From: Candidatus Poribacteria bacterium
GTDB lineage: Bacteria > Poribacteria > WGA-4E > WGA-3G
Assembly: GCA_022821495.1 (NCBI GenBank)
Contig: JAJEDN010000078.1
Location: 30,612-94,611 of the forward strand
Direction of reading: 5' to 3'
Length of the DNA: 64,000 bases
This document shows, one piece after another, positions 41,220 to 60,158 of this stretch (its first letter is position 1; the number at the start of each line of letters is the position of its first letter). The position numbers and the translations under genes are program-made. Below the pieces are notes generated by a model. It saw nothing but the letters and a program-made list of their open reading frames with translations. It was not told the DNA's origin and searched no databases.

Positions 41220-44200
41220 GTGATAGAGCTTTTACGTAAAACGGAAAATTATCAAACACTCGTGGCGCGCCTCAAAGACGGCAAGAAGCTTCCTTGGATC
41301 AGAGGATTGGCAAACGCATCGACTGCGTATTTTTTGGCGACCCTGATTGATGACTTCCCGAAAAAATCCTTTCTAATTGTCCTACCCTCACAGCGTGAAG
41401 CCGAACAGGTGATGGCGGAAATCTGTACATATCGCGCCTACCCGACTTTAGAAACGGCACCCACTACTGACGCACAGTCAGAAATTAATCTGTTTCCCGG
41501 TTGGAACCGAAAAATTTTCGATGGCATTGCGCCACTCAAGAGCACGGTCGTGGATCGGATTCGGTGTCTGGAGCACCTAATCCAAGGAGAACGAAGTGTC
41601 GTTGTAACCACAAGCCAGGCGATGCTTTACAAGCTGCCGCGACCGCAGCGTTTTGCCGCCGCTTGTTGTCAACTTAATCTTGGCGGTGAGGCGGACCCAG
41701 ACGATGTCGCTGCGATGCTGATCCGTGGCGGGTACCAGAGCGTCGAATTAGTAGAGGTTAAAGGTGAGTTCGCACGTCGAGGGGACATCCTTGATGTCTA
41801 TCCACTCACAGCTGAGGTCCCCGTGCGAATTGAATTTTTCGGAGATGAAATCGATACAATCCGCACTTTTGATCCAATATCACAACGCTCAACAAAATCG
41901 CTTGAATCCGTCACTTTTACACCCCTGCGAGAAATCCTTTTCGATGACATATCAGTTGAGCATTGGCAGGCCCAGGTAGATACACTTACGCAGGCACACG
42001 CAACGCCACAACTCGTAAATGCTGTTCGGAAAATAACGGATAGTTTGACAAAAGCAGCAACCTCCCAATACCCGCTTCAAGAATCTCCGATTAATGATGC
42101 AATAAAGGCATTCTTTCCAATGCTTGTTCCGGAAACCGGGACGCTTACTGATTATCTATCGGAAGATACACTTGTCTGTTTAATAGAGCCGCAATGGCAA
42201 AAACGAGAAGCGTCACAGATGTACGAACAGATGCAAGAGTTACATGAAAAAAAGCTCACAGAATCAACGCTGATGGTGCCACCAGAGCAGCTCTTAACAC
42301 CCTATGAGACGCTTAGCACCGAGTTAGAGAGGTATCCTGTTGTATCATTGTCTTTGGCACCCCCGCGTGAGGTCGTAGACAGTAAATTGACGCTATTGGA
42401 TTTCGGGATGAAACCGCTCGCACTGCCAGCAGGGAACTATCAAACTGTCATTGATCAGGTTAAAACATGGGCAGAGAAAGGAAATCAAGTTCATCTCTTC
42501 TGTGAAACACCACAGCAATCGAAGCGAGTGACTGAAATTTTAACCGAGCGCGAATTGTCGCCCACAGATATTGACATCAGTGTCGGCGCAATCAGTAGTG
42601 GATTTCACAACGAAGCACTAAATCTCATTGTTATTTCTGAGGATGAACTCTTCGGGAACCGCCAGCACCGCCCAACCCGACGCCGTCCACCTGCAGACGG
42701 GACACCCATCCTAAGCCTGATTGATCTGAAAGCTGGGGACTATGTCGTCCATGTTTCTCACGGTATCGCTGTTTATGAAGGGATACGTCGGTTGGATCTT
42801 GATGGCAAATCTCAGGATTTTCTTGTGCTCAAATACAGTCATGATAATACCCTCTACGTACCGACGTATCAAGTAGATCTCGTTCAGAAATACGTGGGGA
42901 GCAAAGACAACGCATATAAACCTCGCGTGGACCGGCTCGGTGGCGCATCCTGGCAACGACGAAAGGAACGGGCCAAGCAGTCGGTTGAACAGATGGCAGA
43001 TGAACTCCTCAATTTATACGCGCTTCGGCAGGCGCGAAAAGGATACGGTTTTCCGTCGGAGGTGCCGTGGCAAACTGAATTTGAAGCACTCTTCCCTTAT
43101 CAGGAGACCGATGACCAACTCCAAGCAATTGAGGACGTTAAAGCGGATATGGAAAATGAACGTCCAATGGATAGACTTATCTGTGGAGATGTCGGGTACG
43201 GCAAAACAGAGGTCGCTTTGCGGGCTACCTTCAAAGCCGTTATGTCCGAAAAACAGGTAGCAGTGCTTGTCCCTACAACGATTCTCGCACTCCAGCACTA
43301 TGACACCTTTGAAAAACGGTTTCAGTCTTTCCCAGTCCATGTTGAGATGTTGAACCGATTCCGTACACCGAAAGAAATAAAACAGATTAAAGAAGGATTG
43401 GCGGATGGGACGGTTGATGTCGTTATAGGGACGCATAGCCTACTTTCTAAGACTGTGAAATTTGACAATCTGGGGCTTTTGGTCGTTGATGAAGAGCATC
43501 GCTTCGGCGTTAAGCATAAGGAGAAGATTAAACAGTTCAAAGAGACTATTGACGTGCTTACATTGACGGCTACACCGATTCCTCGGACACTCCACATGTC
43601 GCTTGTCGGTATCCGAGATTTTAGTATTATCAATACACCACCAGCAGATCGATTGCCGATTCAGACGCATGTTATGCCTTATGATAGTGATGTCGTCCGG
43701 GAAGCGATCACAACAGAATTAGCCCGCGATGGACAGATCTTTTTCGTTCATAACCGCGTTGAAAATATCCAGAATATTGCGTTAACGCTTCAACAACTCC
43801 TACCGGATGCGCGAATTGCTGTCGCACATGGGCAGATGCCGGAACGCGAATTAGAGACCGTTATGTTGGAGTTCGTCCGCCATAAACACGACATCCTCGT
43901 TTGTACGATGATTATTGAATCAGGTCTGGATATCCCGAACGTTAATACGATCCTGATTAATCGAGCGGATGCGCTCGGTTTAGCGCAACTTTATCAGTTG
44001 CGCGGGCGCGTCGGACGCGCGACTACGCAAGCTTACGGTTATCTATTCTATCCGCAAGACCGAGCGATTACTGAAGGTGCTCAAAAACGGCTGCGGGTCA
44101 TCGAGGAATTCACAGATCTCGGTTCAGGTTTTAAAATAGCACTCCGGGATTTGGAAATTCGCGGGACAGGGAACATACTCGGCGCGGAACAGCATGGACA

Positions 44201-44729
44201 TATTGTTACTGTCGGTTATGAACTTTACTGCCAACTCCTTGAGGAAGCAGTGATGGCACTGAAAGGCGAGAAAATTGAGGAAACCTTTGAAACACGGATC
44301 AGTCTACCTGTTGAAGCCTATTTGCCAGACGACTATGTTCCAGATAGCCGTCAGAAAGTTTCCATCTATAAAAAAATTGCCGGTTTGAAGAACAACGAGG
44401 CACTGAAGGAACTCCGTGAAGAACTTCGGGACCGGTACGGTACGATTCCAGAACCTGCTGAGATGTTACTTGAGATTGCCAATGTGAAGCAACTCAGCCA
44501 AAACCTCGGCATAACTGCTATTGTCGCCGGGAAGGAACAGGTAAAGGTTACCTTTAATGAGCAGAAACCTCGAATTAATGTGAAGAAATTCATTGATATA
44601 ATCCACCAAAACGATAACCTCCAGCTCCAACCACCGGCGCAACTTAAAATTCAGATGCCCGGAATAACGGGGGTAAATGTATTAACCGAATTACAACGGA
44701 CCCTTAAATTGTTTGTTGCCTCATCGTAA
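41220..44729 (+). CDS. mfd: Transcription-repair coupling factor Mfd
   Basis: 1169 aa. UvrB-homology N-terminus. RID region. DEAD/DEAH helicase motifs GDVGYGKTEVALRA, DEEHRFGV, TATPIPRT. TRG motif. C-terminal D7 domain. Confidence 0.9.
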   Translation: MIELLRKTENYQTLVARLKDGKKLPWIRGLANASTAYFLATLIDDFPKKSFLIVLPSQREAEQVMAEICTYRAYPTLETAPTTDAQSEINLFPGWNRKIFDGIAPLKSTVVDRIRCLEHLIQGERSVVVTTSQAMLYKLPRPQRFAAACCQLNLGGEADPDDVAAMLIRGGYQSVELVEVKGEFARRGDILDVYPLTAEVPVRIEFFGDEIDTIRTFDPISQRSTKSLESVTFTPLREILFDDISVEHWQAQVDTLTQAHATPQLVNAVRKITDSLTKAATSQYPLQESPINDAIKAFFPMLVPETGTLTDYLSEDTLVCLIEPQWQKREASQMYEQMQELHEKKLTESTLMVPPEQLLTPYETLSTELERYPVVSLSLAPPREVVDSKLTLLDFGMKPLALPAGNYQTVIDQVKTWAEKGNQVHLFCETPQQSKRVTEILTERELSPTDIDISVGAISSGFHNEALNLIVISEDELFGNRQHRPTRRRPPADGTPILSLIDLKAGDYVVHVSHGIAVYEGIRRLDLDGKSQDFLVLKYSHDNTLYVPTYQVDLVQKYVGSKDNAYKPRVDRLGGASWQRRKERAKQSVEQMADELLNLYALRQARKGYGFPSEVPWQTEFEALFPYQETDDQLQAIEDVKADMENERPMDRLICGDVGYGKTEVALRATFKAVMSEKQVAVLVPTTILALQHYDTFEKRFQSFPVHVEMLNRFRTPKEIKQIKEGLADGTVDVVIGTHSLLSKTVKFDNLGLLVVDEEHRFGVKHKEKIKQFKETIDVLTLTATPIPRTLHMSLVGIRDFSIINTPPADRLPIQTHVMPYDSDVVREAITTELARDGQIFFVHNRVENIQNIALTLQQLLPDARIAVAHGQMPERELETVMLEFVRHKHDILVCTMIIESGLDIPNVNTILINRADALGLAQLYQLRGRVGRATTQAYGYLFYPQDRAITEGAQKRLRVIEEFTDLGSGFKIALRDLEIRGTGNILGAEQHGHIVTVGYELYCQLLEEAVMALKGEKIEETFETRISLPVEAYLPDDYVPDSRQKVSIYKKIAGLKNNEALKELREELRDRYGTIPEPAEMLLEIANVKQLSQNLGITAIVAGKEQVKVTFNEQKPRINVKKFIDIIHQNDNLQLQPPAQLKIQMPGITGVNVLTELQRTLKLFVASS

Positions 44730-44751: not shown

Positions 44752-44985
44752 AGACGTGCTACGCGCGTTGTCTAAAGCGCGTAAGCCCAACCAACGGGCG
44801 GGCTGGATATACGGAGATGCACTTTATTTCCGAAACCGTCCTGACTGAACCGCAAGGAACATTAAAAGTATGCTGCGCGCGTTGTCCAAAGCGCGTAAGC
44901 CCAACCAACGGGCGGGCTGGATATACGGAGATGCACTTTATTTCCGAAACCGACCTGACCGAACCGCAAGGAACATTAAAAGTAT
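44752..44985. repeat. 117-bp near-perfect tandem duplication (2 units) covering the RBS and start codon of the first SurA-like gene
   Basis: Units 44752-44868 and 44869-44985 differ at ~5 positions. Each contains GCGCGCGTTGTC[CT]AAAGCGCG and GCCCAACCAACGGGCGGGC hairpins and ends with aaggaacattaaaagtATG. Confidence 0.85.
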
Positions 44986-45952
44986 GAAAAAAGCGATTAC
45001 TCTTTTTTTAATTGTCGCTGTGACTTGCCTATTAACTTGGAAATTCGTTCAATCTGATAGCCACGAGCAGCCCGCGCCTGCTATGGACGAAAGCCAGGTA
45101 ATTTTAGCCGAGTATAAATGGAACGGCGAGTCACATCAAATCTCGTTGGCGGACCTGAACGCCGCAATCGCAGAATTACCTGTTTACCGCCAGCAGAATT
45201 ATGAAGCACGCGCCGACAAAGCCGAGTATCTTGAAGAATTGATAGACGAACGGCTCAAACTGCTTCGCGCAACTGACGATGGGTTTGATAAATCCCTTGA
45301 GCACCTCAAGAAACTTGAAGACTATACGCACCAGCTCATGGTTGAAAAATTAACTGAAGCAGAAGTTGATGCCAAGGTCGTCTACACAGATGAGGATCTT
45401 ATGGCACATTATCAGGCGAACCTGAGTGAATACATTGAGGACGCAAAAGTCCGAGCGATCTGTATCACGCTTGATGATGAAGACCTCGCTAACGAAACAC
45501 TTGATGCTATTAAAGCAGGGAAAGACATTGTTGAGATGGCGAAGGAACTCTCTGAAGCAGGGAAACTCGCTAACGGACCCGGCACTAACCAAGATGATCC
45601 AGGCAATACCTACCTCTTCACAAAAGCCGCCTCTGCACGCTGGACGGAATTCATTGAAACTGTTTTTGACCAAGAAGTCGGCGAAATGACGGATGCTGTC
45701 TTTGAAACCGATGTCAACGACGAAACCTTCTATCTCATCTTCCGTAAGGAGGAGCATCAACCCGAACGACAGCAGGAATTCGATGAAGTTAAAGACGATA
45801 TTCAAAGAACCGTTGAACGCGCAAAGAAACGTGAGCGCATCAATGAATGGGTTACCGAAATCACTGAAAAAGGCAAACTGAAAACCTATCCTGAGAATAT
45901 TCCGGAGCCGCCGAAACCCGAAGAAGCGGAGACCGAAGAATCAGAACAGTAG
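44984..45952 (+). CDS. SurA-N-domain / degenerate parvulin chaperone-like protein (paralog A)
   Basis: Signal/TM ITLFLIVAVTCLLTW. SurA-like N-terminal helical region. Weak PPIase-like C-terminus. Acidic tail. Confidence 0.55.
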   Translation: MKKAITLFLIVAVTCLLTWKFVQSDSHEQPAPAMDESQVILAEYKWNGESHQISLADLNAAIAELPVYRQQNYEARADKAEYLEELIDERLKLLRATDDGFDKSLEHLKKLEDYTHQLMVEKLTEAEVDAKVVYTDEDLMAHYQANLSEYIEDAKVRAICITLDDEDLANETLDAIKAGKDIVEMAKELSEAGKLANGPGTNQDDPGNTYLFTKAASARWTEFIETVFDQEVGEMTDAVFETDVNDETFYLIFRKEEHQPERQQEFDEVKDDIQRTVERAKKRERINEWVTEITEKGKLKTYPENIPEPPKPEEAETEESEQ

Positions 45953-46022
45953 CCTATTCCGATTTTTGGAAGCAACATCTGTGACCATAACGATAGGTCG
46001 AGAAAAGGAGTTAGAATTGAAA

Positions 46023-47033
46023 ATGTTTAAAAGAATTGCCTTATTCATGCATAGAATGGATAGCAAGTCCCGAATTCCAGTGATCTCTTTACTTTTAATC
46101 GGGGTTCTCGCCACACATCCCGTCTTTTATAGCTGCAGCGACAAAGCAATCGGTGCTGATGGAACAGTTATCGCTGAATTTGAATGGAACGGTAAACACC
46201 ACATCACTCTTGAAGAGATGATGCAAGAGATTAGCGAACTCCCGGAATACAAGCAACGGCAATATCAGGACAAGTCAGGGCTCGAAACCTACATGCTCCT
46301 TATGGCTGAGAGTCGCTTAATTCTCAATCTCGCGCGCGAGCAGAAGCTCAACGAAGATGCCGAAATCCTCAAGAAAGTTCAGGACTATCTTCATGAGTTG
46401 ATGGTTAAGAAAATTACCACCCAAGAAGTTGATGACAAACTCTCCTTGAGTGAAGATGACTATATGGCACACTATGAAGCACACAAGGAGGACTACGTCC
46501 GCCCGGCACAAGTGCGACTTTTATGTATTACCTTGATCAACAAAGAACGTGCCTATGAAGTTTCCGCAGAGATTAAAGCCGGTAAAGACATCGCTGATGC
46601 TGCCCAAGAACTTTCTGATCGTGGTGAACTCGTCGGTCCTGGCGCAAATGCAGCCTCTCCTGGCGACACCGACTATTTCAGCCGGGATTCCTATCCAGCC
46701 GGAACGGAACCGTTCTTAGATGCAGCATTTACTGCTGAAATAGGGACACTTCACGATGATGTTATCGAAGTTGATGTCCAAGGACAGAAATACTACATGA
46801 TGTTCCGTAAGGACGAAGCACGCGATGAATATCAAAAACCCTTTGAGGACGAAGATGTTCGTAAGAGTGTGGAGCGGAAGGCTGAACGTGAAAAGCGGGA
46901 AGCCCTTATGATGGAATGGATTAAGCAGCTCCGCGAGCGCGCCGAAGTCAAAACCTATATTGATCGGATTCCAGAGGCGGAACCCGAAGAACCAGCGGAA
47001 GAGGCGACGGAAGAACCGGAGCCAGAGGAATAG
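46023..47033 (+). CDS. SurA-N-domain / degenerate parvulin chaperone-like protein (paralog B)
   Basis: Same architecture, with sequence similarity to paralog A (EFEWNGKHHITLEEMMQEISELPEYKQRQYQDK vs EYKWNGESHQISLADLNAAIAELPVYRQQNYEAR). Confidence 0.55.
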   Translation: MFKRIALFMHRMDSKSRIPVISLLLIGVLATHPVFYSCSDKAIGADGTVIAEFEWNGKHHITLEEMMQEISELPEYKQRQYQDKSGLETYMLLMAESRLILNLAREQKLNEDAEILKKVQDYLHELMVKKITTQEVDDKLSLSEDDYMAHYEAHKEDYVRPAQVRLLCITLINKERAYEVSAEIKAGKDIADAAQELSDRGELVGPGANAASPGDTDYFSRDSYPAGTEPFLDAAFTAEIGTLHDDVIEVDVQGQKYYMMFRKDEARDEYQKPFEDEDVRKSVERKAEREKREALMMEWIKQLRERAEVKTYIDRIPEAEPEEPAEEATEEPEPEE

Positions 47034-47091
47034 CCTTATATCCGTAAGTGTGGCGCGGTTACGGATCGCGCCACATCCTCCATAAAGGAAC

Positions 47092-48390
47092 ATGCGCATG
47101 ACTTACAAAAAAACGGTCTATCTCACGTTGATTGCCCTACTTATCGGTGGTGGATTCTCAAGCGTTTCTGCTCGCACTTTTGATAGAATCATTGCTTATG
47201 TCAACGATGACGTTGTTACCAAGCGTGAACTTGATGTCTTGGTAAAGCAGCGCGCCATGGAGCTCCAGCAGGTCTATCGCTTTAGCGAGCGTGAGGCGCT
47301 CAACGAGGCTGAACGACAGCGGCGCGAACTCTTGGACAGACTGATCCGACAAATGTTGCTTTTGGAAGCGGCGTTAACTTTAAAAGTCACCGTCACTGAG
47401 GCAGAGATCGAGCAGTACGTAAAAGACTTCAAAGACAGATACCAGATGGAGACCGATGAGGAATTTAAGAAACAGTTGAATCGTGAAGGCATGACACTCG
47501 TAGCATTTCGGGAGCAGTCGGAGCGGAATCTTAAAACCGAAAAACTTGTCATGGGCAGAATCGTTCCAAGATTGCAGGTCCGGGACAGTGAAATCCAAAA
47601 ATTTTTTGATGAGAATCGGGACCAATTGTCAACAAAAGTGGATAAAGTACATTTACGACACATTTTTATCGCCTTTAAACCCAACCAAGCCGATCGCGAT
47701 GCCGCTCATGAAAATGTCAGAAAAGCGCGTGATGAGATTCAGGCTGATGGCGCGAAATTTGAAGAATTCGCACGGCGTTACGATACTTCTAAACAGGCAG
47801 GCGTTCTCGTAGAGGCTTCCACCGAAGAATTTAGTAAATTCCCGAAACTCTTTCAGGATGCACTCGCAGATCTAACGATAGGTACACTCAGTGAACCGGT
47901 TGAAGCTGACAAAGGACTCTATGTCTTCAGAATCGAAAAGAAGACCGATGAGATGGTCGCATTCCGATATTTCATCGTTCCGCTGACTCCGAGCCCAGCG
48001 GCGATACAGGAAGCGCGCGAACAGGCTACCGATGTTTTTACAAAATTAGAAGCAGGCGAGGATTTTAGTAAACTCGCATTACTACATTCTGATGATACTG
48101 AGACGCAAGAAAATGGCGGGGACCTCGGAATCCGTTCTTTATCGGAACTCAATCCTAAAACGCGAGCAGTTGTTGAACCTTTGGCGCCGAATGCCTACAG
48201 TCAACCCTATGAAACTGAATCTGGACTCCACATCTTTAGAGTGGACGAACGAGATAGCCCAGGTTTGACTGAAGCCGAGAAGGCACAGATTACATCAATA
48301 CTTCGTCAACAGCGGTTCCAAGAAGAATGGGATGCATACACCAATAAACTTCTTGAAAACGCTTATGTTAAAATTAATCTGAAAGAGTAA
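47092..48390 (+). CDS. surA: Peptidyl-prolyl cis-trans isomerase / chaperone SurA
   Basis: RIIAYVNDDVVTKRELD SurA N-domain. Two parvulin modules, the second with GGDLGIRSLSELNPKTRAVVEPLAPNAYSQPYETESGLHIFRV. Confidence 0.8.
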   Translation: MRMTYKKTVYLTLIALLIGGGFSSVSARTFDRIIAYVNDDVVTKRELDVLVKQRAMELQQVYRFSEREALNEAERQRRELLDRLIRQMLLLEAALTLKVTVTEAEIEQYVKDFKDRYQMETDEEFKKQLNREGMTLVAFREQSERNLKTEKLVMGRIVPRLQVRDSEIQKFFDENRDQLSTKVDKVHLRHIFIAFKPNQADRDAAHENVRKARDEIQADGAKFEEFARRYDTSKQAGVLVEASTEEFSKFPKLFQDALADLTIGTLSEPVEADKGLYVFRIEKKTDEMVAFRYFIVPLTPSPAAIQEAREQATDVFTKLEAGEDFSKLALLHSDDTETQENGGDLGIRSLSELNPKTRAVVEPLAPNAYSQPYETESGLHIFRVDERDSPGLTEAEKAQITSILRQQRFQEEWDAYTNKLLENAYVKINLKE

Positions 48391-48396: not shown

Positions 48397-51300
48397 GTGA
48401 AGAAGCGCGCGTTCGATGTGCCTACCAATCATCTACATCAAGACTCCAATATAATGCGTCCTCATAAAACTGACCTTCCGTCGTTGTCATTCCTGTCGTT
48501 CGCATCAACGTTCAGGTATGCATGTATAGCGACAACGCTATTCGTCGTTTTATGCTTTCTGGGTCCAATCCAGATGGCTATCGCGCAAGATGCGCAACCT
48601 GCTGAACCGCCAACTGTTGAGACGGAGCCATCCGAGTCCACACCTACGGATCAGCCCCCAGAAGCAGAATCCACACCTGAACAGTTGACCCCAGAGACAG
48701 ATACGCCTGAAGAAGGTGAGGAAGAACCTACACCTGAACAGTTGACTCCAGAGACAGATACACCTGAAGAAGGCGAGGCGGAATCTGCACCTGAACGGTT
48801 GAACCCAGAGACGGATACACCTGAAGAAGGCATGGTCATTGGCGATGGCGATGATATGTCTATTGTCGATAATTTCGTTCAAATCCACGGCAATGCCCTC
48901 ATCAAGTTTGAAGATGTTATTTTGCGAGCAGACCATGTCTGGGCTGACTTTGATGACAATTTGATGCGCGCAACAGGCAACGTCCATCTCATAGTCGGTA
49001 ACGAGGAAACCTATTCTGATGAGCTGATCTTCAATCTCGAAAATAAGAAAGGGATTGCACGCAACGGGTTCACATACAGCGATCCATGGTACTTCGGCGG
49101 TAGTGAAATCTTTAAAATAGAGGAGGATCGTTCCTATATCCGAGGCGCGACACTCACCACCTGTTCACTAAAACACCCACACTACTATTTCAGTGTCACT
49201 GAAGTTATCGTCCGAATGAATCAGGAGTTGATCGCCAAGAACATCGTTTTGCGTATCGGTGGATTTCCGCTCTTCTATTTTCCTGCTATGCGGCGGGATC
49301 TCCGTAAAGGGAAGGTCGCAAAGATAATCGTCAAACTTGGAACGGATAGTTACCAGGGACCCTACATTAGTATCATTCAACCGCTTGTCCGTAAACGCCG
49401 CTACGACGCTGCACTGCTCTATGATAGAAGCGCGCGGCGCGGGCAAGGCTACGGTTTTGAAGGGAAATATAGATTTTCAGATACGAAATTCCAAGAAATT
49501 TATCTCCCGATTCCGCCGGATGCAACACCAAATCAGCGCACTAAGTTAAAAGAGAAAGCCGAGGAATTACAAGAGCGACTTGAGGGTGAATACGATCGCT
49601 ATTGGTTAGAGCAGATTTTTCTGGAATATAAAATTACCGATGAGGATGTTGCGCGTGCTAAAGAGGAAGCAGAAGAACTCTTCGAGCAACTCCAAGAGGA
49701 GGACGCGGACTTTGCTGCACTCGCTCAGCAGAATTCTGATCACTCGGATACCCGTTATGACGGCGGTGATCTCGGATTCCTCGCGCGCGGTGAAACCGAT
49801 GAGGAAGGGAACCCTAAACTTGATCCCGTTCTGGAAGAAGCTGTTTTCGCACTCAATGAAGGTGAGATTACCCCTGTCGTCCAAACCGAATCCGCATTCC
49901 ATATTCTTAAAGCCGATCAGATCGTTGACGTCTATGGCGAGCGCGAGATTAAACTCCGCCGCATTGATATTGCTATTACGCCGAGTGATGACTCAAAGGA
50001 TGCACTCCGCGTATTAGCGGATGACATACTCCAACGCGCCCAGCAAGGAGAACCCTTTGAGCAACTCATTCAACTGCCCGATGGATTTACTGGGACAGCG
50101 CAGCCTGTCCTGTCCGAAATCAATGAGGGGGAAGGCTTGCCATTAAATGAGATGCAGTCTTCATGGCAATCTGCTGTTAGACGCTTGGAAGTACCAGGGG
50201 ATGTCATTGAACGCCGACCGATTACGACACCTGAGGGACTCTATATTTTTAAGTTAATCGAAAAAGAGGAAACACCCTCTTTTGAAACGATCGCGGCGCA
50301 ATTTGAGGCGGAATGGGACACATTTTTTGAGGATTTAATGAATCCTGCCCCTGAAGAAACCGAGGAAGGGGCAAATGGAACGAAACCAGGCACAACCGAT
50401 GCCACGCAATCGCAAAAGATCGATACCGCGCCAGTTGTAGAAAAGCCTATGTCAGCGTCTGAGACGACTGATACTGATGATACGCAGAGCACCGAGCAGA
50501 ATGAAAGCGAAACGGTGGAAGATGAACAGCAGAGCGTTACGCCTAATCAGACCGAAGACGTTGAAAAACTTGACCCGGAGCCTGATGCTGATGATACACA
50601 GAACGCCGAGCAGAACGAACGGGAAGAGGATAAACAAGACGACGCAGTGCCGAATCCAAACGAAGCCGATGCGCAAGACTTAGCCGCCGAAGAGAACCCT
50701 GAAGGCGGGGTGGTAGGTGAGGCAACAGCGGAAGACGAAGAAGAACTTGAAATCTATCGGAGACACGGATTTCGTGGACGCTGGGAAGATCCGAGTCCCG
50801 TCGCATCGGAGGCACAAAGTTTATATGCCGGGGATTTAGGGAGACGCCCCATTCAAACGAAAAAATCTTTTCGTCTCATCAAAGTTGATAAAAAACGGAC
50901 CTATCGGGGTGAACTCTATATCTACGGCAACGATGTGTATTCCGCCCAGCGACAGAGTGCGATCCGAACAGGAAACCGTTGGATGATGCGATGGGCGCAC
51001 ACACATTCCATCTATACACCTTGGGATAACCGCCAAGAAGGGAGACGTCCCATCAGCTTCACTGGCAGGAGCGAGCTTCGCTCCGAAAGTTATAAAGAGG
51101 AATACCAACTCCCCAATAAAGCCTCGCTCTACTCTTTCGCAATCCTTACTTATGGGACAGGTTTATCAACCTTTGATCTCGAAGATCTTGATGAAAATGG
51201 GAACCTGAAGTTTTCACGAGAGACGATTGGAGACATCACAGGTAGACTTGAGGTGCGGCACATCCACGATTTTACTGATGAAGGGTCGAGATCTCTACAG

Positions 51301-52578
51301 AAACTGCCACAATTAACGCTGAACTTTTCACGGATGCGGCTCAGCGCGTTCCCTCTTTTTGATGCCCTCAACGATAGGATGCTAACGGTTGCCGAAACAC
51401 TCGGAACGGAGACGCCTTTCCTCTCGATGTTCACATTTCCAACGCTCGAAAGCACAAGTGTTGACCTTGATATTGAGCTCGGCAACTTCTTTAGAGAAGT
51501 TTTTCGCGGTAAAGCGGGTGAGGAGCGAGATGTTTATCTCAAGACGATGGACTTGGGTTTTGATGTCCGAAAACAATCCACGCTTCTAATTACACCCTTG
51601 CGAGAACTGCAACTTAGCCTTAACCTCAACTCAAATACGATTTGGCATGACCGAGACCAGGATCAAAACAAAAACATTTTTCGCGGCGTTTTCAGTTTTA
51701 ACGGATCTGCCACAAATACGCTCTTCCGTATCTACAATGTCAGTTATATCCCTGGGCTACGGAAATTGCGCCACGAAATTCAATCCTCACTCCGATATGA
51801 TTATCAACCTGCTGTTGATAGAGATGATAACCTGTATCCGTTCGGTCCGAGTACCTATTTCTATGAACGGAAGCGGCTCACCTATAGTTTCAACACGGCT
51901 TTTGAGATTAAAACGCGACGGAGCCAGTCACCGCACCGTATCATGTATTTTGATACACGTCTCACTGCCGATTTTACAGAGTTCGACCCTTTATATGAGC
52001 GTCAGTTCGAGCCTATTGAAAGTGATTTTACAATCGTCCCGCTTCCGAGCCGAAACCTTAACATGACCTTTCGCGTCACGCATGACCCGAATCCGCATCC
52101 CGATAGTGGAGAGCAATTCAAGGTGGTCGGATTCCGTTCCAACATCCGCTACACACGAAAGGCTTGGAACGTCAGCGTCGGAAGTTCCTTTAGCAAGAGA
52201 CACACCGCGCGGCGTGCCTCCCGTTCTATTACCGCTACGGGACGTTACCGCGTGAGTCGAAATCTGGAGTTTAACGCCAGTGTTATCTACTATCCGATTG
52301 ATGGGCAGTTTTATCAACAACGTTTAAGTATGACGCGGAACCTACACGATTGGAATCTTCGGATTTCTTGGAGTCGGATCGGTATTAAACGTGAACCGCC
52401 TTACGACAATGTGCGTCAGGACTTCACGTTCCAAGTGAATCTCATCCAAGAACCGGCAGTTTCAATGGGGGTCGGCTATGACGCAACAACTGAAACGTGG
52501 GGGATCCGGACTGTACCCGCAGGCGTGCCATATAACGCATTCGGAGCCGGTAACTCACTCCGTAGGTCTTACTTCTAA
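48397..52578 (+). CDS. lptD: LPS-assembly protein LptD (OstA family) with unusual insertions: acidic PE-rich tandem repeats and two embedded parvulin-like PPIase modules
   Basis: GTG start. OstA N-domain (ADHVWADFDDNLMRATGNVHL) and TTCSLKHPHYYF LptD motif. Parvulin signature DGGDLGFLARGE...TESAFHILKA at aa ~460-520. Long C-terminal beta-barrel-like region. 57-bp x3 repeat at 48672-48838. Confidence 0.75.
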   Translation: MKKRAFDVPTNHLHQDSNIMRPHKTDLPSLSFLSFASTFRYACIATTLFVVLCFLGPIQMAIAQDAQPAEPPTVETEPSESTPTDQPPEAESTPEQLTPETDTPEEGEEEPTPEQLTPETDTPEEGEAESAPERLNPETDTPEEGMVIGDGDDMSIVDNFVQIHGNALIKFEDVILRADHVWADFDDNLMRATGNVHLIVGNEETYSDELIFNLENKKGIARNGFTYSDPWYFGGSEIFKIEEDRSYIRGATLTTCSLKHPHYYFSVTEVIVRMNQELIAKNIVLRIGGFPLFYFPAMRRDLRKGKVAKIIVKLGTDSYQGPYISIIQPLVRKRRYDAALLYDRSARRGQGYGFEGKYRFSDTKFQEIYLPIPPDATPNQRTKLKEKAEELQERLEGEYDRYWLEQIFLEYKITDEDVARAKEEAEELFEQLQEEDADFAALAQQNSDHSDTRYDGGDLGFLARGETDEEGNPKLDPVLEEAVFALNEGEITPVVQTESAFHILKADQIVDVYGEREIKLRRIDIAITPSDDSKDALRVLADDILQRAQQGEPFEQLIQLPDGFTGTAQPVLSEINEGEGLPLNEMQSSWQSAVRRLEVPGDVIERRPITTPEGLYIFKLIEKEETPSFETIAAQFEAEWDTFFEDLMNPAPEETEEGANGTKPGTTDATQSQKIDTAPVVEKPMSASETTDTDDTQSTEQNESETVEDEQQSVTPNQTEDVEKLDPEPDADDTQNAEQNEREEDKQDDAVPNPNEADAQDLAAEENPEGGVVGEATAEDEEELEIYRRHGFRGRWEDPSPVASEAQSLYAGDLGRRPIQTKKSFRLIKVDKKRTYRGELYIYGNDVYSAQRQSAIRTGNRWMMRWAHTHSIYTPWDNRQEGRRPISFTGRSELRSESYKEEYQLPNKASLYSFAILTYGTGLSTFDLEDLDENGNLKFSRETIGDITGRLEVRHIHDFTDEGSRSLQKLPQLTLNFSRMRLSAFPLFDALNDRMLTVAETLGTETPFLSMFTFPTLESTSVDLDIELGNFFREVFRGKAGEERDVYLKTMDLGFDVRKQSTLLITPLRELQLSLNLNSNTIWHDRDQDQNKNIFRGVFSFNGSATNTLFRIYNVSYIPGLRKLRHEIQSSLRYDYQPAVDRDDNLYPFGPSTYFYERKRLTYSFNTAFEIKTRRSQSPHRIMYFDTRLTADFTEFDPLYERQFEPIESDFTIVPLPSRNLNMTFRVTHDPNPHPDSGEQFKVVGFRSNIRYTRKAWNVSVGSSFSKRHTARRASRSITATGRYRVSRNLEFNASVIYYPIDGQFYQQRLSMTRNLHDWNLRISWSRIGIKREPPYDNVRQDFTFQVNLIQEPAVSMGVGYDATTETWGIRTVPAGVPYNAFGAGNSLRRSYF

Positions 52579-53600: not shown

Positions 53601-54398
53601 ATGCAAACAAATCCATGGGGAACAATCCGTTTTACAGATAAAGTCGCGTTAATAACAGGAGGTGCCTCTGGCATCGGTAGAGCAACAGCGAACCGCCTCG
53701 CAGCCGAAGGCGCGCATGTTATCATCGCCGACAACAACGCCGAAATGGCGCGCACGACAGTCGCTAAAATCGAGGAGACAGGCGGTAAAGCGACCTACAT
53801 AGAAGTGGATCTTGCTGATGACGAAAGCGTCACCACCGCCGCGCAAACTGTCGCCGAAAAGTTTTCTGCACTCCACGTGCTCGTCAATAACGCTGCTATC
53901 TTGAGAAGCGGTAAAATTGAAGACGGCGCGTGGATACCCAATTGGGAACCCGAAACCGCAATCGGGCTCCGAGGTTGGGTCCTGATTACGCAGCATCTTT
54001 TACCGCTTATGAAAAAAGAGGGTGCCGCGATTGTTAACCTCTCATCGGAAGGCGGGTTTCTCGGTAGACCCGGACAGTGGATCTACGATGCCATTAAAGC
54101 CGGACTCGTCTCTCTCACCAAAACGATGGCGCAGGAATTTGTCGAATACGGTATTCGGGTTAACGCCATTGCACCGGGTTGGATCGTTACAGAGATGCAC
54201 TTCGGTAAAGCAACCGACCCTGAGGCTCAGAAGAAGGCGTTAGAGGAATTAACGATCTCCTCGTGTATCATGAAACGTCTTGCCAAACCTGAAGAGGTCG
54301 CCGCCGCTATCGCTTTTCTCCTCAGTGACGATGCCTCCTACATTACAGGTCAGACTTTACACGTTGATGGTGGTCGTTGGGGAATGTCTGTCGGTTGA
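53601..54398 (+). CDS. SDR family oxidoreductase
   Basis: TGGASGIGRATA, NNAA, Y..IK (YDAIKAG). Confidence 0.85.
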   Translation: MQTNPWGTIRFTDKVALITGGASGIGRATANRLAAEGAHVIIADNNAEMARTTVAKIEETGGKATYIEVDLADDESVTTAAQTVAEKFSALHVLVNNAAILRSGKIEDGAWIPNWEPETAIGLRGWVLITQHLLPLMKKEGAAIVNLSSEGGFLGRPGQWIYDAIKAGLVSLTKTMAQEFVEYGIRVNAIAPGWIVTEMHFGKATDPEAQKKALEELTISSCIMKRLAKPEEVAAAIAFLLSDDASYITGQTLHVDGGRWGMSVG

Positions 54399-54426
54399 TT
54401 TTCCTTTAATCTCGTCTATTTACACT

Positions 54427-54972
54427 ATGCCAAACAAAACCCACACCACAGCGGTTGTTCTGATCCCGCCAGAAAACGTACAACCCCCCATCCAAGCCAT
54501 CCGCCGGATTCATGATCGCAACTTCGAGCGTTGGATGCCCCATATAACGCTGCTCTACCCATTCGCAGCGCGTCGTGATTTCACAGAGATTACGCCCGCG
54601 CTCACAAAAGCCGCACAACAGATAACATCCTTTTCCATTGAACTCACACGTTTTAACGCTTTCAAACATCGCAAATCTTGTACGATGTTTCTTGTTCCAG
54701 AACCCGAAGACGAAATCGGTCAGTTACACAGCACGCTATTACAACACCTTCCAGACTACGACGACACCGCACAATTTGCCGGTGGGTTCCATCCTCACCT
54801 CTCCGTCGGACAATTCCAGCATCGATCTCTGCAGACCGAGCAGCAGCGTCTCCAAACCGAATGGCAGCCGATAGCGTGTGAAATGAAATCGCTCAGTCTT
54901 ATCTACCGCTCACCTCAAACAGATGACAGGTTCGTCATAGCGGAACAATTTCCGTTTCAGAAAAGGAACTAA
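54427..54972 (+). CDS. 2H phosphoesterase superfamily protein (LigT / 2'-5' RNA ligase-like)
   Basis: Two HxT/Sx motifs: HITLLYPF and HLSVGQF. Confidence 0.65.
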   Translation: MPNKTHTTAVVLIPPENVQPPIQAIRRIHDRNFERWMPHITLLYPFAARRDFTEITPALTKAAQQITSFSIELTRFNAFKHRKSCTMFLVPEPEDEIGQLHSTLLQHLPDYDDTAQFAGGFHPHLSVGQFQHRSLQTEQQRLQTEWQPIACEMKSLSLIYRSPQTDDRFVIAEQFPFQKRN

Positions 54973-57392: not shown

Positions 57393-58958
57393 ATGAATAC
57401 CAATCTCGCCGATATCGAAAATAGGCTCTGGAGTGCCGCCGATGAACTCAGAGCCAATTCACGCCTTAAGGCGTCCGAATACTCAACACCTGTCCTCGGG
57501 CTTATCTTTTTACGATACGCCGATCACAAGTTTACACAGGCTGAACAAGACATCAGCAGCGAAGCCGATCCAAACAGCCGCAGGCAGCCCGACCTGAGAA
57601 TGGAATGTCAAGCCCGCGGTGTACTTTATCTGCCAGCGCATTCGCGGTTTCAATACATACTCAGTTTGCCAGAAGGTGAAAATATCGGGCAAGCTATCAC
57701 TGATGCTATGAAGGCAATAGAGGCGGAAAACTCACAAATAGAGGGTGTCCTTCCCAAAACTTACAATCGACTTGAAAAGAACACGCTCCTCGAACTCCTC
57801 CGTATCATGGAACAGATCCCTATGGACATTGAAGGAGATGCTTTCGGGAAGGTTTATGAGTACTTCCTCGGCAATTTCGCCATGAGCGAGGGGCAACGCG
57901 GCGGTGAATTCTTCACACCAACCTCGCTCGTGAAACTCATCGTTGAGATTATCCAACCCTTTCACGGACGCATCCTTGATCCTGCCTGCGGATCCGGTGG
58001 AATGTTTGTCCAGAGTGCAGCGTTCATTAGCAACCACAAGAAAAATGGCAACCCCGGAGACATCAGCATTTACGGCGTTGAACGCGTCGTTGAAACGATC
58101 AGGCTGTGCAAAATGAATCTCGCCGTTCATGCCCTTGAAGGCGATATTAAACAAGCCAGCAGTTACTACGAGGATCCGCACAACTGCCTCGACAGATTTG
58201 ATTTCGTCATGGCAAATCCACCTTTCAACGTCGATCGCGTGGACAGAGAACGGATCAAAGACGATCCGCGATTCCCGTTCGGCATGCCCCGTGTCGATAA
58301 TGCCAACTACCTTTGGATACAATTGTTCTATAGTTCGCTTTCCGAATCCGGGCGTGCAGGTTTCGTCATGGCGAACTCCGCCGCCGATGCCCGTGCCTCT
58401 GAACTCGACATCCGCCGCCAGATTATCGAATCCGGCGCAGTCGATGTCATCGTCAGCATCGCCTCGAATTTCTTTTATACCGTTACCTTACCCTGTACCC
58501 TCTGGTTCTTCGATAAGCCCAAACGGAACAGCGATAGACACGATAAAGTCTTGTTCATTGACGCACGCCATCTCTATCAACAGGTGAGCCGCGCCCATCG
58601 GGAATTCACACCCGGACAACTTGAATTCCTTGCAAACATCGTCAGACTTTATCGCGGAGAAGCACCAGAGAACCAACACGACAGTGCAGATTTCCTCACC
58701 TCAAAATTCCCCGATACAGAATACATTGATGTCCCTGGACTTTGCAAGGTCGCCACGATTGCCGAGATTGAGACACAAGGCTGGAGTCTGAACCCCGGAC
58801 GCTATGTCGGCGTTGACGAACAGACAACCGACGATTTCGACTTCACCGAACGATTTACGCAGCTCAACGAGGAGTTAGCAGTCCTAAACGCCGAAGCACA
58901 TCAACTCGAAGAACGCATCGCCGAGAACGTTGCAAAGATTTTGGAGGATACGGTATAA
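57393..58958 (+). CDS. hsdM: Type I restriction-modification system methyltransferase subunit HsdM (N6-adenine)
   Basis: N-terminal HsdM_N (LWSAADELR). Motif [12 protein letters not shown]. Motif IV ANPPFN. Confidence 0.9.
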
Positions 58959-58976
58959 TGTTGATGGAGGGAAAAA

Positions 58977-59303
58977 ATGAGTGAAGAAGTCAAAATTGAG
59001 GAAAGTTCTGGAAATGTGTTTCTGGACATCGGTTTCTCCAAAGAAGAGGCGGAATATCACCAGTTAAGGGTAGACTTGGCGATTAAAATTTATCGACTTT
59101 TTGAGGAACTAAAACTGACTCCGGCGAAAGCAAAGGCAGACTTTGGAATCAATCCATCTGATGTGTCCCGAATACAGAACGGAGATTTTAGTTTTACTAT
59201 GGACAAACTCTTTACAATCCTGAGCCAGTTGAACTGCAATGTTGAAATCCGCATTACACTTTCGGAAGATACCCAGGGGCACCTGCGACTCGTTACAACT
59301 TAG
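58977..59303 (+). CDS. XRE-family HTH protein (HigA-antitoxin-like / possible controller) inserted in the R-M operon
   Basis: SGNVFLDIGF..EEAEYHQLRVDLAIKIYRLFEELKLTPAKAKADFGINPSDVSRIQNG...FTMDKLFTILSQLNCNVEIRI matches the HigA/XRE antitoxin pattern. No upstream toxin ORF. Confidence 0.65.
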   Translation: MSEEVKIEESSGNVFLDIGFSKEEAEYHQLRVDLAIKIYRLFEELKLTPAKAKADFGINPSDVSRIQNGDFSFTMDKLFTILSQLNCNVEIRITLSEDTQGHLRLVTT

Positions 59304-59336
59304 TTATTGTTTTCCGTAGAGATGGCATCCGTATAA

Positions 59337-59392
59337 GAACAAAAAATCTGGTAACACTCTGAAGAATGTGGCATAATATTACAGAGGCAGGT
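59337..59392 (+). promoter_or_regulatory. Promoter-like 50-bp repeat copy 1 (extended -10 TGGCATAAT), oriented antisense to the HNH gene
   Basis: aaaaaatctggtaacactctgaagaatgtggcataatattacagag is ~80% identical to 60159-60212. Confidence 0.4.
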
Positions 59393-59450
59393 TTTGAATA
59401 ATAAGATAAAAGGACGAAGGCTATTTTCCGTCGCCCATTTGTGTAAGCGT

Positions 59451-59711: not shown

Positions 59712-59747
59712 TTTTATTTCACCTCTTTTCTTTCGGTTATAGTTTAT

Positions 59748-59776
59748 ATATTAACATGTGTTGCGATATTTGTCAA
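59748..59776 (-). promoter_or_regulatory. Consensus sigma70 promoter of the HNH gene (minus strand)
   Basis: Reverse complement of 59748-59776 reads ttgacaaatatcgcaacacatgttaatat. Confidence 0.55.
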
Positions 59777-59820
59777 CCATAAGCGTCAATTTTAGAAACA
59801 ATAACCGCCTCCGCCCCAGA

Positions 59821-60100: not shown

Positions 60101-60158
60101 ATTGTCGAAAAGCGGCGTGAAATTCAAGATTTTCTTAAAACTAAATGGTCCTGATATC

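What the first reader, a model, noticed from the sequence alone, without database searches (positions are those of the whole stretch)
48397..52578. LptD homologue with two embedded parvulin PPIase modules and acidic repeat inserts, directly downstream of three SurA-like genes
The N-terminal OstA domain and the TTC...PHYYF motif identify LptD. Between them and the C-terminal barrel-like region lie a clear parvulin signature (DADFAALAQQNSDHSDTRYDGGDLGFLARGE...TESAFHILKA) and a second, degenerate one, plus PE-rich tandem repeats (57 bp x3 at 48672-48838) and a long acidic stretch (~50340-50760). A SurA-like chaperone module fused into the LPS translocon subunit is not the textbook architecture. 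Together with three tandem surA paralogs (44984-48390) it suggests an elaborated outer-membrane-protein/LPS assembly locus.
Basis: partly seen in the sequence, partly recalled or inferred. Interest (0 to 1): 0.55.

Follow-up and report, generated by a model that had tools for sequence, protein, structure and literature searches.

The report
LptD with built-in periplasmic parvulin domains
In the sponge-symbiont phylum Poribacteria, the outer-membrane protein that inserts lipopolysaccharide (LptD) carries three chaperone-like parvulin domains in a periplasmic turn of its barrel, a conserved architecture I found no paper describing.

Summary
Window 48397-52578 is one intact 1393-aa ORF from a Candidatus Poribacteria genome. 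It is a true LptD. The family profile aligns with canonical LptD_2 proteins plus E. coli LptD at probability 100%, E = 3e-77. An AlphaFold model of the LptD-only part (pLDDT 83) has LptD structures as its top 38 PDB matches.

There are three tandem modules:
- P1 is a clear Pfam Rotamase match (3e-25).
- P2 is degenerate.
- P3 is degenerate and is split by the 136-aa acidic low-complexity stretch.

The array does not lie between the jellyroll and the barrel. It is an insertion of about 475 residues inside the barrel, between strands β4 and β5. That is periplasmic turn T2, beside the jellyroll.

The fusion is not an assembly artefact. It occurs as a single ORF in at least 80 Poribacteria species, including closed chromosomes, and in more distant relatives with three or four intact parvulins. 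The mfd, 2x Rotamase_2, surA, lptD gene order is conserved.

The function of the insert is inferred only. The most likely role is a built-in SurA-like chaperone or scaffold. I rate it a new variant of a known kind, of moderate-to-good interest.

The parts
48397..52578 (+). Whole gene: LptD_2-type LPS-assembly protein with parvulin insertions (1393 aa). The GTG start is the one listed by the ORF tool; an ATG at 48454 (M20) is a possible alternative start.
48397..48585 (+). N-terminal leader with a hydrophobic signal-peptide-like segment ending ...MAIA|QDAQ (residues 1-63)
   Evidence: Read from the sequence. The cleavage site is inferred, not predicted with a tool.
48586..48831 (+). Pro/Glu/Thr-rich acidic linker ahead of the jellyroll (residues 64-145; 28 D/E, 1 K/R). 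It contains the 57-bp x 2.9 tandem repeat at 48666-48831. Its length ranges from 0 to 105 aa among homologues.
48832..49299 (+). Periplasmic β-jellyroll (LptD_N/OstA-like), residues 146-301, including the TTC256...PHYYF motif. C256 corresponds to E. coli C173.
   Evidence: The AF2 model has 12 strands here at pLDDT about 87-91. hhalign aligns it to E. coli LptD residues 49-220. Foldseek also matches LptA 2r1a.
49327..49476 (+). Barrel strands β1-β4 (residues 311-360)
   Evidence: AF2 DSSP strands 171-177, 181-192, 196-205 and 209-220 of the spliced model. hhalign aligns them to E. coli residues 224-281.
49477..50898 (+). Insertion of about 475 residues in periplasmic turn T2, between β4 and β5 (residues 361-834). 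It consists of a conserved lead-in and helix, three parvulin modules and an acidic low-complexity stretch.
   Evidence: hhalign leaves a gap between E. coli Q281 and A282. The AF2 model has four strands before the junction and three strands between the junction and extracellular loop L4. The L4 anchor comes from PMC6887485.
49582..49926 (+). Parvulin module P1 (residues 396-510). The positions of the Pin1 catalytic tetrad hold Q406/H449/S499/H502.
   Evidence: Pfam Rotamase 3.2e-25. PDB PrsA 2jzv 7e-11..
49933..50301 (+). Parvulin module P2, degenerate (residues 513-635). It has no catalytic residues.
50257..50343 (+). N-terminal part of parvulin module P3 (residues 621-649)
   Evidence: Alignment to the third parvulin of P0123 and P0128
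50344..50751 (+). Acidic low-complexity insert (residues 650-785; 45 D/E, 6 K/R). It replaces the 'S-D-x-S...GGDLG' loop of P3. Its length ranges from 86 to 177 aa and pairwise identity is 42% among homologues.
50752..50898 (+). C-terminal part of parvulin module P3 (residues 786-834)
   Evidence: Family parvulin HMM matches residues 779-827 at E = 3.6e-10. phmmer to P0123 residues 533-604 gives 2.2e-11.
50899..52443 (+). Barrel strands β5-β26 (residues 835-1349). Family-specific periplasmic insertions lie at T3 (873-882), T4 (924-944) and T5 (982-1019).
   Evidence: Weak Pfam LptD_2 match at residues 1022-1146.
51340..51453 (+). Helical insertion in periplasmic turn T5 (residues 982-1019). 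The P0128 clade carries a fourth parvulin at this site.
52444..52575 (+). Family-specific, highly conserved C-terminal extension after β26 (residues 1350-1393, ending RSYF)
47092..48390 (+). surA orthologue, ending 6 nt before the lptD start codon
44870..47033 (+). Two paralogous Rotamase_2-type (PpiD/PRK00059-like) chaperone genes: 44870-45952 and 45966-47033
41220..44729 (+). mfd (transcription-repair coupling factor), the conserved upstream neighbour of the block

Best explanation
What it is. The gene encodes the Poribacteria orthologue of LptD, the outer-membrane β-barrel that receives lipopolysaccharide from the periplasmic Lpt bridge and inserts it into the outer leaflet. It has the standard parts: a periplasmic β-jellyroll followed by a 26-strand barrel of the LptD_2 type.

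What is unusual. About 475 residues are inserted into the short periplasmic turn between barrel strands β4 and β5. The insert holds three tandem parvulin-fold modules. P1 keeps three of the four catalytic-tetrad positions in recognisable form. P2 and P3 have lost them. The loop region of P3 is replaced by a disordered acidic stretch of about 136 aa. Smaller family-specific insertions sit in the next three periplasmic turns (T3-T5). All extra material therefore hangs under the N-terminal half of the barrel, beside the jellyroll.

Shown:
- LptD homology and fold.
- Number and position of the modules.
- Periplasmic side of the insertion.
- Conservation across the phylum.
- Purifying selection on the degenerate modules.

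Inferred:
- The barrel still exports LPS.
- The parvulin array works as a tethered SurA-type chaperone or scaffold. It could hold or template LptD's own N-terminal strands and jellyroll during BAM-dependent assembly. It could also brace the jellyroll-barrel junction in the finished machine. It is unlikely to act mainly as a prolyl isomerase.

My confidence by step: LptD identity about 0.95, periplasmic T2 insertion about 0.8, chaperone/scaffold role about 0.35-0.4.
For: Identity:
- phmmer of the LptD-only part against 1.84 billion representatives gave 2331 hits.
- Hits P0144, P0146 and P0148 (E = 1e-28 to 1e-25) are LptD by Pfam: LptD_2 at 1e-46, plus LptD and LptD_N. NCBI names P0144 'LPS assembly protein LptD'.
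- P0144 matches solved LptDs at 1e-11.
- hhalign of the family against canonical LptD_2 gives E = 5.9e-85 over 622 columns. With E. coli LptD added it gives probability 100% and E = 2.9e-77, query 4-772 against E. coli 49-770.
- The AF2 model has pLDDT 83.4 and pTM 0.71, with a jellyroll and 26 barrel strands.
- In Foldseek against the PDB, ranks 1-38 are all LptD (E down to 1e-24, TM 0.53-0.68).

Topology:
- Four strands lie between the jellyroll and the junction, and three lie between the junction and the L4 equivalent.
- hhalign places the insertion between E. coli Q281 and A282.
- E. coli L4 starts at D330 and is extracellular (PMC6887485).
- The equivalent of C724/C725 falls in a 3-residue turn, as expected for the periplasmic side.

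Modules.

Conservation:
- More than 120 protein clusters at 68-100% identity.
- More distant relatives at 30-60% identity with three or four intact rotamases.
- 80 Poribacteria species loci, including closed chromosomes.
- The same single ORF in L007.
- The mfd, Rotamase_2 x2, SurA, LptD order is kept in a relative about 28% identical.
- P1-P3 are as conserved as the barrel (78-84% against 82%) and have fixed length. The acidic stretch is 42% conserved with variable length.

Link to SurA:
- lptD and surA are adjacent in E. coli too.
- P1 is 35% identical to the second parvulin of the neighbouring SurA.
- That LptD is a strongly SurA-dependent substrate in E. coli is established knowledge, consistent with the papers listed.
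Against: - No functional data exist for any member.
- Pfam LptD_2 is below its cut-off for this protein, and LptD_N/OstA is not detected.
- A profile of the full-length family alone found no LptD chain in the PDB.
- The first full-length AF2 attempt failed (pLDDT 32.6). The position and packing of the parvulin array itself was therefore never modelled.
- The good model was built with the insert deleted. That forces β4 and β5 together, and the junction has pLDDT below 50.
- The insert lacks SurA's N-terminal chaperone domain.
- The catalytic tetrad is incomplete even in P1: Gln stands at the first His position and His at the Cys/Asp position.
- I could not check whether these genomes also hold a second, canonical lptD, or an lptE.
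Confidence: 0.6

Rival explanations
1. The parvulin array is purely structural. It would be a rigid periplasmic collar or brace that fixes the jellyroll to the barrel, or substitutes for LptE or for the interdomain disulfide. It would have no chaperone or isomerase activity.
For: - P2 and P3 lack all catalytic residues yet are conserved with fixed length.
- All extra insertions cluster in turns T2-T5 next to the jellyroll.
- The sponge clade has lost the barrel cysteine ('LHCW' became 'LHDW'). It keeps only C256, so the E. coli-type C173-C725 staple cannot form.
Against: - P1 keeps Ser and His at two tetrad positions in 108 and 120 of 120 homologues.
- Relatives that still have the Cys pair (the P0128 clade) carry even more parvulins, and intact ones. 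The array therefore did not arise to replace the disulfide.
- The presence or absence of LptE was not tested.
Confidence: 0.25
2. The protein is a neo-functionalised LptD paralogue. A canonical LptD elsewhere in the genome would export LPS. This barrel would anchor a parvulin chaperone hub at the outer membrane for other clients, such as OMPs arriving at BAM.
For: The locus holds three further periplasmic PPIase-chaperone genes. The barrel is divergent enough to fall below Pfam's LptD_2 cut-off.
Against: - The jellyroll and the whole barrel align end to end with LptD, and the jellyroll is 91% conserved.
- surA-lptD linkage is the ancestral arrangement for the genuine lptD.
- Most of the 80 species records gave a single locus. 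One isolate, Plut_88888, gave two (L008 and L015). That search was not designed to find a canonical paralogue.
Confidence: 0.1
3. The parvulin array is displayed on the cell surface in extracellular loop L3 as a host-interaction or adhesin module of the sponge symbiont.
For: By eye, 'KFQEIYLPIPPD' just before the insert resembles E. coli 'LMELDYLPSD' at the end of β5. Acidic low-complexity stretches are common in surface proteins.
Against: - hhalign aligns E. coli β5 and β6 ('GLMELDY...RRWLFYWNH') to 'GELYIYG...NRWMMRWAH' after the insert, not before it.
- The AF2 model has four strands, not five, before the junction.
- The second insertion site (T5) is an even number of strands away, and every extra insertion maps to a periplasmic turn.
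Confidence: 0.04
4. The fusion is an artefact: a frameshift or misassembly joining a surA-like gene to lptD.
For: None beyond the unusual architecture.
Against: - The same uninterrupted ORF occurs in more than 150 independent protein clusters and 80 species genomes, including closed chromosomes.
- The insert lies inside the barrel, with β1-β4 upstream of it. No simple join of two genes could produce that.
Confidence: 0.01

Closest known systems
LptD / LptDE translocon of Proteobacteria (E. coli b0054; PDB 4RHB, 4Q35, 5IV9, 8H1R, 7OMM)
   Same: N-terminal periplasmic β-jellyroll plus a 26-strand barrel. The 'TxC...PHY' motif is shared, with C256 matching E. coli C173. The 'PxFY.P' junction is shared. 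The gene is linked to surA. The alignment runs end to end (E = 3e-77), and LptD structures are the top structural matches.
   Different: A 475-residue parvulin array sits in turn T2, with further inserts in T3-T5. There is an acidic 82-aa N-terminal linker and a conserved 44-aa C-terminal tail. The barrel cysteine that pairs with C173 is absent. Sequence identity is only about 11-14%.
Pfam LptD_2 (PF19838) family of non-proteobacterial LptDs (e.g. P0144, Ca. Edwardsbacteria)
   Same: Closest canonical relatives: phmmer 1e-28 and hhalign 5.9e-85.
   Different: The canonical members are 630-900 aa and have no parvulin. Some instead carry two to four extra N-terminal jellyrolls.
SurA (periplasmic OMP chaperone with two parvulin domains)
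   Same: Tandem parvulin domains, of which only some keep catalytic residues. P1 is 35% identical to the second parvulin of the neighbouring SurA. In E. coli SurA is the chaperone on which LptD assembly depends (established knowledge).
   Different: The insert has no SurA_N domain and no C-terminal tail, which together form SurA's chaperone core. It is tethered covalently to its presumed client instead of being soluble.
Membrane-anchored parvulin chaperones PpiD and PrsA
   Same: Parvulin domains, often catalytically dead, held at a membrane next to a protein-export machine. PrsA is the best solved-structure match of P1 (2jzv, 7e-11).
   Different: Those are anchored to the cytoplasmic membrane by a helix or a lipid, not inserted into an outer-membrane β-barrel.
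BamA POTRA domains
   Same: The same design principle: periplasmic client-handling domains that are part of the same polypeptide as an outer-membrane biogenesis barrel.
   Different: POTRA domains are N-terminal and have a different fold. Here the domains are inserted in an inter-strand turn. This is an analogy only (own knowledge, not tested).

Membership tests
LptD (LPS-assembly outer-membrane protein) | Sequence homology to LptD over both domains | tested here: met
   hhalign probability 100%, E = 2.9e-77, query 4-772 against E. coli LptD 49-770. E = 5.9e-85 against canonical LptD_2. phmmer 1e-28 to Pfam-verified LptDs.
LptD (LPS-assembly outer-membrane protein) | Curated Pfam models (LptD_N/OstA, LptD, LptD_2) above the gathering score | tested here: not met
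   LptD_2 scores 19.5-20.3 bits against a cut-off of 22.5. LptD_N, OstA and LptD are not reported even at E <= 10. Some close homologues and most of the P0128 clade do have PF19838 on record. This is a sensitivity limit of the models, not evidence against homology.
LptD (LPS-assembly outer-membrane protein) | N-terminal periplasmic β-jellyroll followed by a 26-strand β-barrel | tested here: met
   AF2 model with pLDDT 83.4: 12 jellyroll strands and 26 barrel strands. The top 38 Foldseek PDB hits are all LptD. The model was built with the insert deleted.
LptD (LPS-assembly outer-membrane protein) | Interdomain disulfide cysteines (E. coli C31/C173 with C724/C725) | tested here: not met
   Only C256 (matching C173) is present in the mature protein. 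The barrel partner is Asp ('LHDW') in about 122 sponge-clade homologues and Cys in the P0128 clade. This feature is not universal across LptDs.
LptD (LPS-assembly outer-membrane protein) | Partner LptE plug and the other Lpt components (LptA, B, C, F, G) in the genome, and being the sole lptD | not tested
   None of these genes lies in the 64-kb window. Whole genomes could not be scanned with the remaining quota.
LptD (LPS-assembly outer-membrane protein) | LPS translocation activity | not testable with these tools
   Requires experiment.
Parvulin PPIase (Pfam Rotamase PF00639) | Domain model above the gathering score | tested here: met
   P1 scores 89.4 bits against 21.7, E = 3.2e-25. P2 scanned alone scores 19.5-21.1 bits, below the cut-off. 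P3 is found only by a family-tuned HMM and by orthology to the intact third parvulin of relatives.
Parvulin PPIase (Pfam Rotamase PF00639) | Catalytic tetrad (Pin1 H59/C113/S154/H157, with Asp allowed at position 113) | tested here: inconclusive
   P1 has Q406/H449/S499/H502, and the last three are invariant or nearly so in 120 homologues. P2 has I/F/V/M, E and Y at positions 113, 154 and 157. P3 has E/D, K and R there.
Parvulin PPIase (Pfam Rotamase PF00639) | Prolyl isomerase activity | not testable with these tools
   Requires an enzyme assay.
SurA chaperone | SurA N-terminal domain plus C-terminal tail forming the chaperone core | tested here: not met
   No SurA_N, SurA_N_2 or SurA_N_3 hit in the LptD protein. 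The upstream gene 47092-48390 does meet this feature. The insert therefore works like a parvulin array but is not a SurA.

The most novel reading that the evidence does not exclude
Across a whole bacterial phylum, the LPS translocon may have absorbed its own chaperone. A SurA-derived parvulin array built into the periplasmic turns of LptD would make the barrel self-chaperoning. It could also let the barrel do without controls that Proteobacteria rely on, namely soluble SurA delivery, disulfide rearrangement and possibly LptE. That would be a covalent client-chaperone fusion in outer-membrane biogenesis.
Probability: 0.25. Interest if true: 0.75.

Novelty: new variant of a known kind. Interest (0 to 1): 0.6.

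Why it matters
LptD is essential, is a drug target, and is the hardest outer-membrane protein for E. coli to fold. How its huge barrel is chaperoned, closed and coupled to the jellyroll is still being worked out.

A natural LptD with folded chaperone-type domains spliced into a periplasmic turn beside the lateral gate shows three things:
1. These turns tolerate insertions of hundreds of residues.
2. Evolution has repeatedly tied parvulin chaperones to LptD, first as neighbouring genes and here within one polypeptide.
3. There is a graded natural series to work with: four intact parvulins with the Cys pair present, then three parvulins, then one intact plus two degenerate with the Cys lost. This series could be used to dissect what the domains do.

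It also corrects database annotation. These proteins are currently named 'peptidylprolyl isomerase' or 'hypothetical protein', which hides the LptD of the phylum.

Tried and rejected
- Full-length (acidic stretch removed) AF2 with 36 close homologues gave pLDDT 32.6. I discarded the model.
- A profile of the full-length family against PDB sequences returned only parvulins and no LptD. Splitting off the LptD-only part and adding intermediate sequences was needed.
- My by-eye alignment put the insert after β5, in extracellular loop L3. I rejected this after hhalign with the real E. coli sequence and the AF2 strand count.
- MAFFT global alignments (A4) wrongly placed the canonical barrel strands under the parvulin columns. 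I did not use them for mapping.
- A 150-sequence alignment was too large for the structure server.
- Literature searches found no description of this architecture: Poribacteria + LptD, LptD + rotamase, LptD + parvulin + fusion.
- The frameshift or misassembly explanation is rejected.

Full report
**1. What is in the sequence**

Window 48397-52578 (+) is one uninterrupted ORF of 1393 codons. It starts 6 nt after the stop codon of the preceding gene.

- Pfam Rotamase matches residues 410-507 at E = 3.2e-25.
- A weaker second parvulin lies at about residues 513-635. Scanned alone it gives E = 4.7e-4, below Pfam's cut-off.
- A 57-bp tandem repeat of 2.9 copies lies at 48666-48831. It encodes a Pro/Glu/Thr-rich segment.
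- An acidic stretch at residues 650-785 holds 45 D/E and 6 K/R.

Pfam does not report OstA or LptD_N. It gives LptD_2 only 19.5-20.3 bits, below the cut-off of 22.5. The LptD claim therefore needed independent proof.

**2. Organism, and whether the fusion is real**

A search of the 5.8-billion-protein collection returned more than 120 clusters. They are 68-100% identical over the full length. All named ones come from Candidatus Poribacteria, the sponge-symbiont phylum, and many sit on multi-megabase contigs.

A scan of one genome per GTDB species found 154 relatives. The best 80 are all Poribacteria, including closed chromosomes and the single-cell genome WGA-3G. In the closed chromosome OZ253447.1 the gene is again a single 1359-aa ORF behind the same three genes. 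A frameshift or misassembly is excluded.

NCBI and JGI call these proteins 'peptidylprolyl isomerase', 'parvulin-like peptidyl-prolyl isomerase' or 'hypothetical protein'.

**3. It is LptD**

I removed the parvulin region and searched the remaining 843 residues against 1.84 billion cluster representatives. This gave 2331 hits at E <= 1e-3.

Proteins of ordinary LptD size hit at E = 1e-28 to 1e-25 (P0144, P0146, P0148). By Pfam they carry LptD_2 (1e-46), LptD and LptD_N. NCBI names P0144 'LPS assembly protein LptD', and it matches solved LptD chains at 1e-11.

Profile-profile comparison run locally gave:
- the Poribacteria family (insert columns removed) against 56 canonical LptD_2 proteins: E = 5.9e-85 over 622 columns;
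- the same with the E. coli K-12 LptD sequence (b0054, fetched) as master: probability 100%, E = 2.9e-77, query 4-772 against E. coli 49-770.

An AlphaFold2 model of the LptD-only sequence (803 residues, 85-sequence alignment) reached mean pLDDT 83.4 and pTM 0.71. It shows a 12-strand jellyroll followed by 26 barrel strands and a short C-terminal hairpin.

Foldseek against the PDB put LptD structures at ranks 1-38 (4Q35, 8H1R, 5IV9, 9KN3, 7OMM and others). E-values go down to 1e-24 and TM-scores are 0.53-0.68. TonB-dependent receptors follow far behind at E about 1e-3.

**4. Three parvulin modules, not two**

Aligning the protein with more distant relatives found shows what the acidic stretch replaces. 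These relatives are P0123 (48% identical, Ca. Poribacteria), P0124 (40%) and the P0128 clade (about 30%, 1290-1330 aa). In all of them that position is an ordinary third parvulin ('...FEELAKQYSEGDEAANGGDKGYRG...').

In the window protein the flanks of that domain survive (residues 621-649 and 786-834). The loop that normally carries the 'S-D-x-S...GGDLG' motif has become 136 residues of acidic low-complexity sequence. Supporting comparisons:
- phmmer of the rejoined flanks against P0123 gives 2.2e-11 at the position of its third parvulin.
- P2 against the second parvulin of P0123 gives 2e-20.
- A parvulin HMM grown from the family finds P1 at 419-504 (2.5e-30), P2 at 534-618 (2.8e-5) and the C-terminal half of P3 at 779-827 (3.6e-10). 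These E-values come from a small, self-derived data set and are only indicative.

At the positions of the Pin1 catalytic residues C113, S154 and H157 (Pin1 sequence from memory):
- P1 has His, Ser and His, in 120, 108 and 120 of 120 sponge-clade homologues.
- P2 has a hydrophobic residue, Glu and Tyr.
- P3 has Glu/Asp, Lys and Arg.

The first histidine (Pin1 H59) aligns by eye with the invariant Q406. Only P1 could be an enzyme, and even that is doubtful.

P1, P2 and P3 are nevertheless as conserved as the barrel. Their mean pairwise identity is 78-84% against 82% for the barrel, with no length variation. The acidic stretch (42% identity, 86-177 aa) and the N-terminal Pro/Glu linker (0-105 aa) evolve freely. 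The degenerate modules are therefore folded, selected parts of the protein.

**5. Where the array sits**

This was the main open point.

By eye I first matched 'KFQEIYLPIPPD', just before the insert, with E. coli 'LMELDYLPSD'. That would put the array in extracellular loop L3.

The computed evidence says otherwise. hhalign aligns:
- E. coli 224-281 (β1-β4; P231 and P246 lie in β1 and β2, from my knowledge of the LptD structure papers) with the four strands before the insert;
- E. coli 'AGAGLMELDYLPSD...RRWLFYWNHSG' (β5, L3, β6) with 'RGELYIYGNDVYS...NRWMMRWAHTHS' after the insert;
- the insert itself with a gap between Q281 and A282.

The AF2 model independently has exactly four strands between the jellyroll and the junction. 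It has three strands between the junction and the segment aligned to E. coli D330. D330 is the start of extracellular loop 4 (PMC6887485, read).

Four strands from the periplasmic jellyroll and three strands from an extracellular loop both place the insertion on the periplasmic side, in turn T2.

The other family-specific insertions fall in T3 (residues 873-882), T4 (924-944, acidic) and T5 (982-1019, helical). T5 is also where the P0128 clade carries a fourth, intact parvulin. All extra material thus hangs below the N-terminal half of the barrel, next to the jellyroll.

Two caveats apply. The model was built with the insert deleted, and the junction itself is of low confidence. The packing of the parvulins was never modelled, because the only full-length attempt failed at pLDDT 32.6.

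**6. Genomic context**

The order of the block is:
- mfd (41220-44729);
- two Rotamase_2-only genes (44870-45952 and 45966-47033), which are 35% identical to each other and resemble PpiD/PRK00059 in NCBIfam;
- a full SurA (47092-48390);
- lptD.

The same block stands next to the four-parvulin relative P0305, which is only about 28% identical to the window protein. A similar block flanks P0123.

In E. coli, surA is the gene next to lptD. The linkage is therefore old, and Poribacteria have gone a step further. P1 is 35% identical to the second parvulin of the adjacent SurA (E = 1e-10). That is compatible with descent from surA but does not prove it.

No other Lpt gene lies in the window.

**7. 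How it most likely works**

Shown:
- an LptD with an intact jellyroll and barrel;
- a conserved periplasmic parvulin array.

Inferred:
- The barrel still exports LPS.
- The array acts as a tethered SurA-type holdase or scaffold. It could assist folding of LptD's own N-terminal strands and jellyroll at BAM, stabilise the jellyroll-barrel junction, or both.

One observation bears on this. The sponge clade has lost the barrel cysteine that pairs with the jellyroll cysteine in E. coli ('LHCW' became 'LHDW'), and only C256 remains. The P0128 clade keeps that cysteine and has four intact parvulins. The array therefore came first, and the disulfide was lost later.

Rivals, with my estimates:
- a purely structural collar (0.25);
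- a neo-functionalised paralogue alongside an unseen canonical lptD (0.1);
- surface display (0.04);
- an assembly artefact (0.01).

**8. Novelty**

Full-text searches found no description of this architecture: Poribacteria + LptD, LptD + rotamase, LptD + parvulin + fusion.

The kind is known (LptD, parvulin chaperones). The arrangement is not: a multi-domain chaperone-type array inserted in a periplasmic turn of the LptD barrel, conserved across a phylum.

I file it as a new variant of a known kind. Interest is 0.6. It is surprising to people who work on outer-membrane biogenesis and it is testable. It comes from an uncultured phylum, and the function remains inferential.

Noticed in passing
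window 49162-49164 (C256) and 50575-52578 region; residues H727-D728 of the spliced model = residues 1317-1318: The mature protein has a single cysteine (C256, matching E. coli C173). The barrel partner (canonical 'LHCW', E. coli C724/C725) is 'LHDW' in about 122 sponge-clade homologues but is Cys in the P0128 clade. The LptD interdomain disulfide therefore cannot form in the sponge clade.
   Followed up: partly
window 52444-52575 (residues 1350-1393): A 44-aa C-terminal extension after β26, ending ...RSYF, is the most conserved part of the protein (92% pairwise identity). It is family-specific and absent from canonical LptD_2. The AF2 model gives a hairpin followed by a low-confidence tail. 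Its role is unknown.
   Followed up: partly
relatives P0128, P0285, P0292-P0313 (e.g. L001 10001-13921): A deeper-branching clade ('Ca. Poribacteria' or 'bacterium', 1290-1330 aa) has four intact parvulins. The fourth is inserted at a second site, periplasmic turn T5, where the window protein keeps only a helical remnant (residues 982-1019).
   Followed up: partly
proteins P0188, P0199, P0200, P0213, P0242, P0260: Other LptD_2 proteins of 1050-1300 aa carry two to four extra N-terminal OstA/LptC-like jellyrolls. They look like LptA/LptC bridge units fused to LptD.
   Followed up: no
window 44870-47033: The two Rotamase_2 genes are tandem paralogues (35% identity). Each has an N-terminal hydrophobic segment. 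Neither shows detectable similarity to the SurA gene that follows them.
   Followed up: partly
window 57393-62619: A type I restriction-modification cluster: HsdM (57393-58958), a DUF2806 protein (60230-61423) and HsdS (61450-62619). No HsdR was seen within the ORFs scanned.
   Followed up: no
window 32906-35428 and 14914-16422: Eukaryote-like repeat proteins: an 840-aa WD40 protein and a PhyH (dioxygenase) + HEAT-repeat fusion. An SMC/RecF-like ATPase lies at 30619-32553.
   Followed up: no
window 17876-19507 (-), 35497-36408, 38785-40343: ORFs of 543, 303, 274 and 264 aa have no Pfam match at the thresholds used. The last two precede a DUF3108 gene (40349-41161) just upstream of mfd.
   Followed up: no
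window 53601-54398 / 54280-54972: The listed ORF of the LigT-like 2'-5' RNA ligase overlaps the preceding SDR gene by about 120 nt. Its Pfam match starts at residue 63, so the true start is probably further downstream.
   Followed up: no
protein P0134 (MBM3283343.1): A partial member of this LptD-parvulin family is deposited as 'Candidatus Gottesmanbacteria' (CPR). It is probably a mis-binned contig.
   Followed up: no
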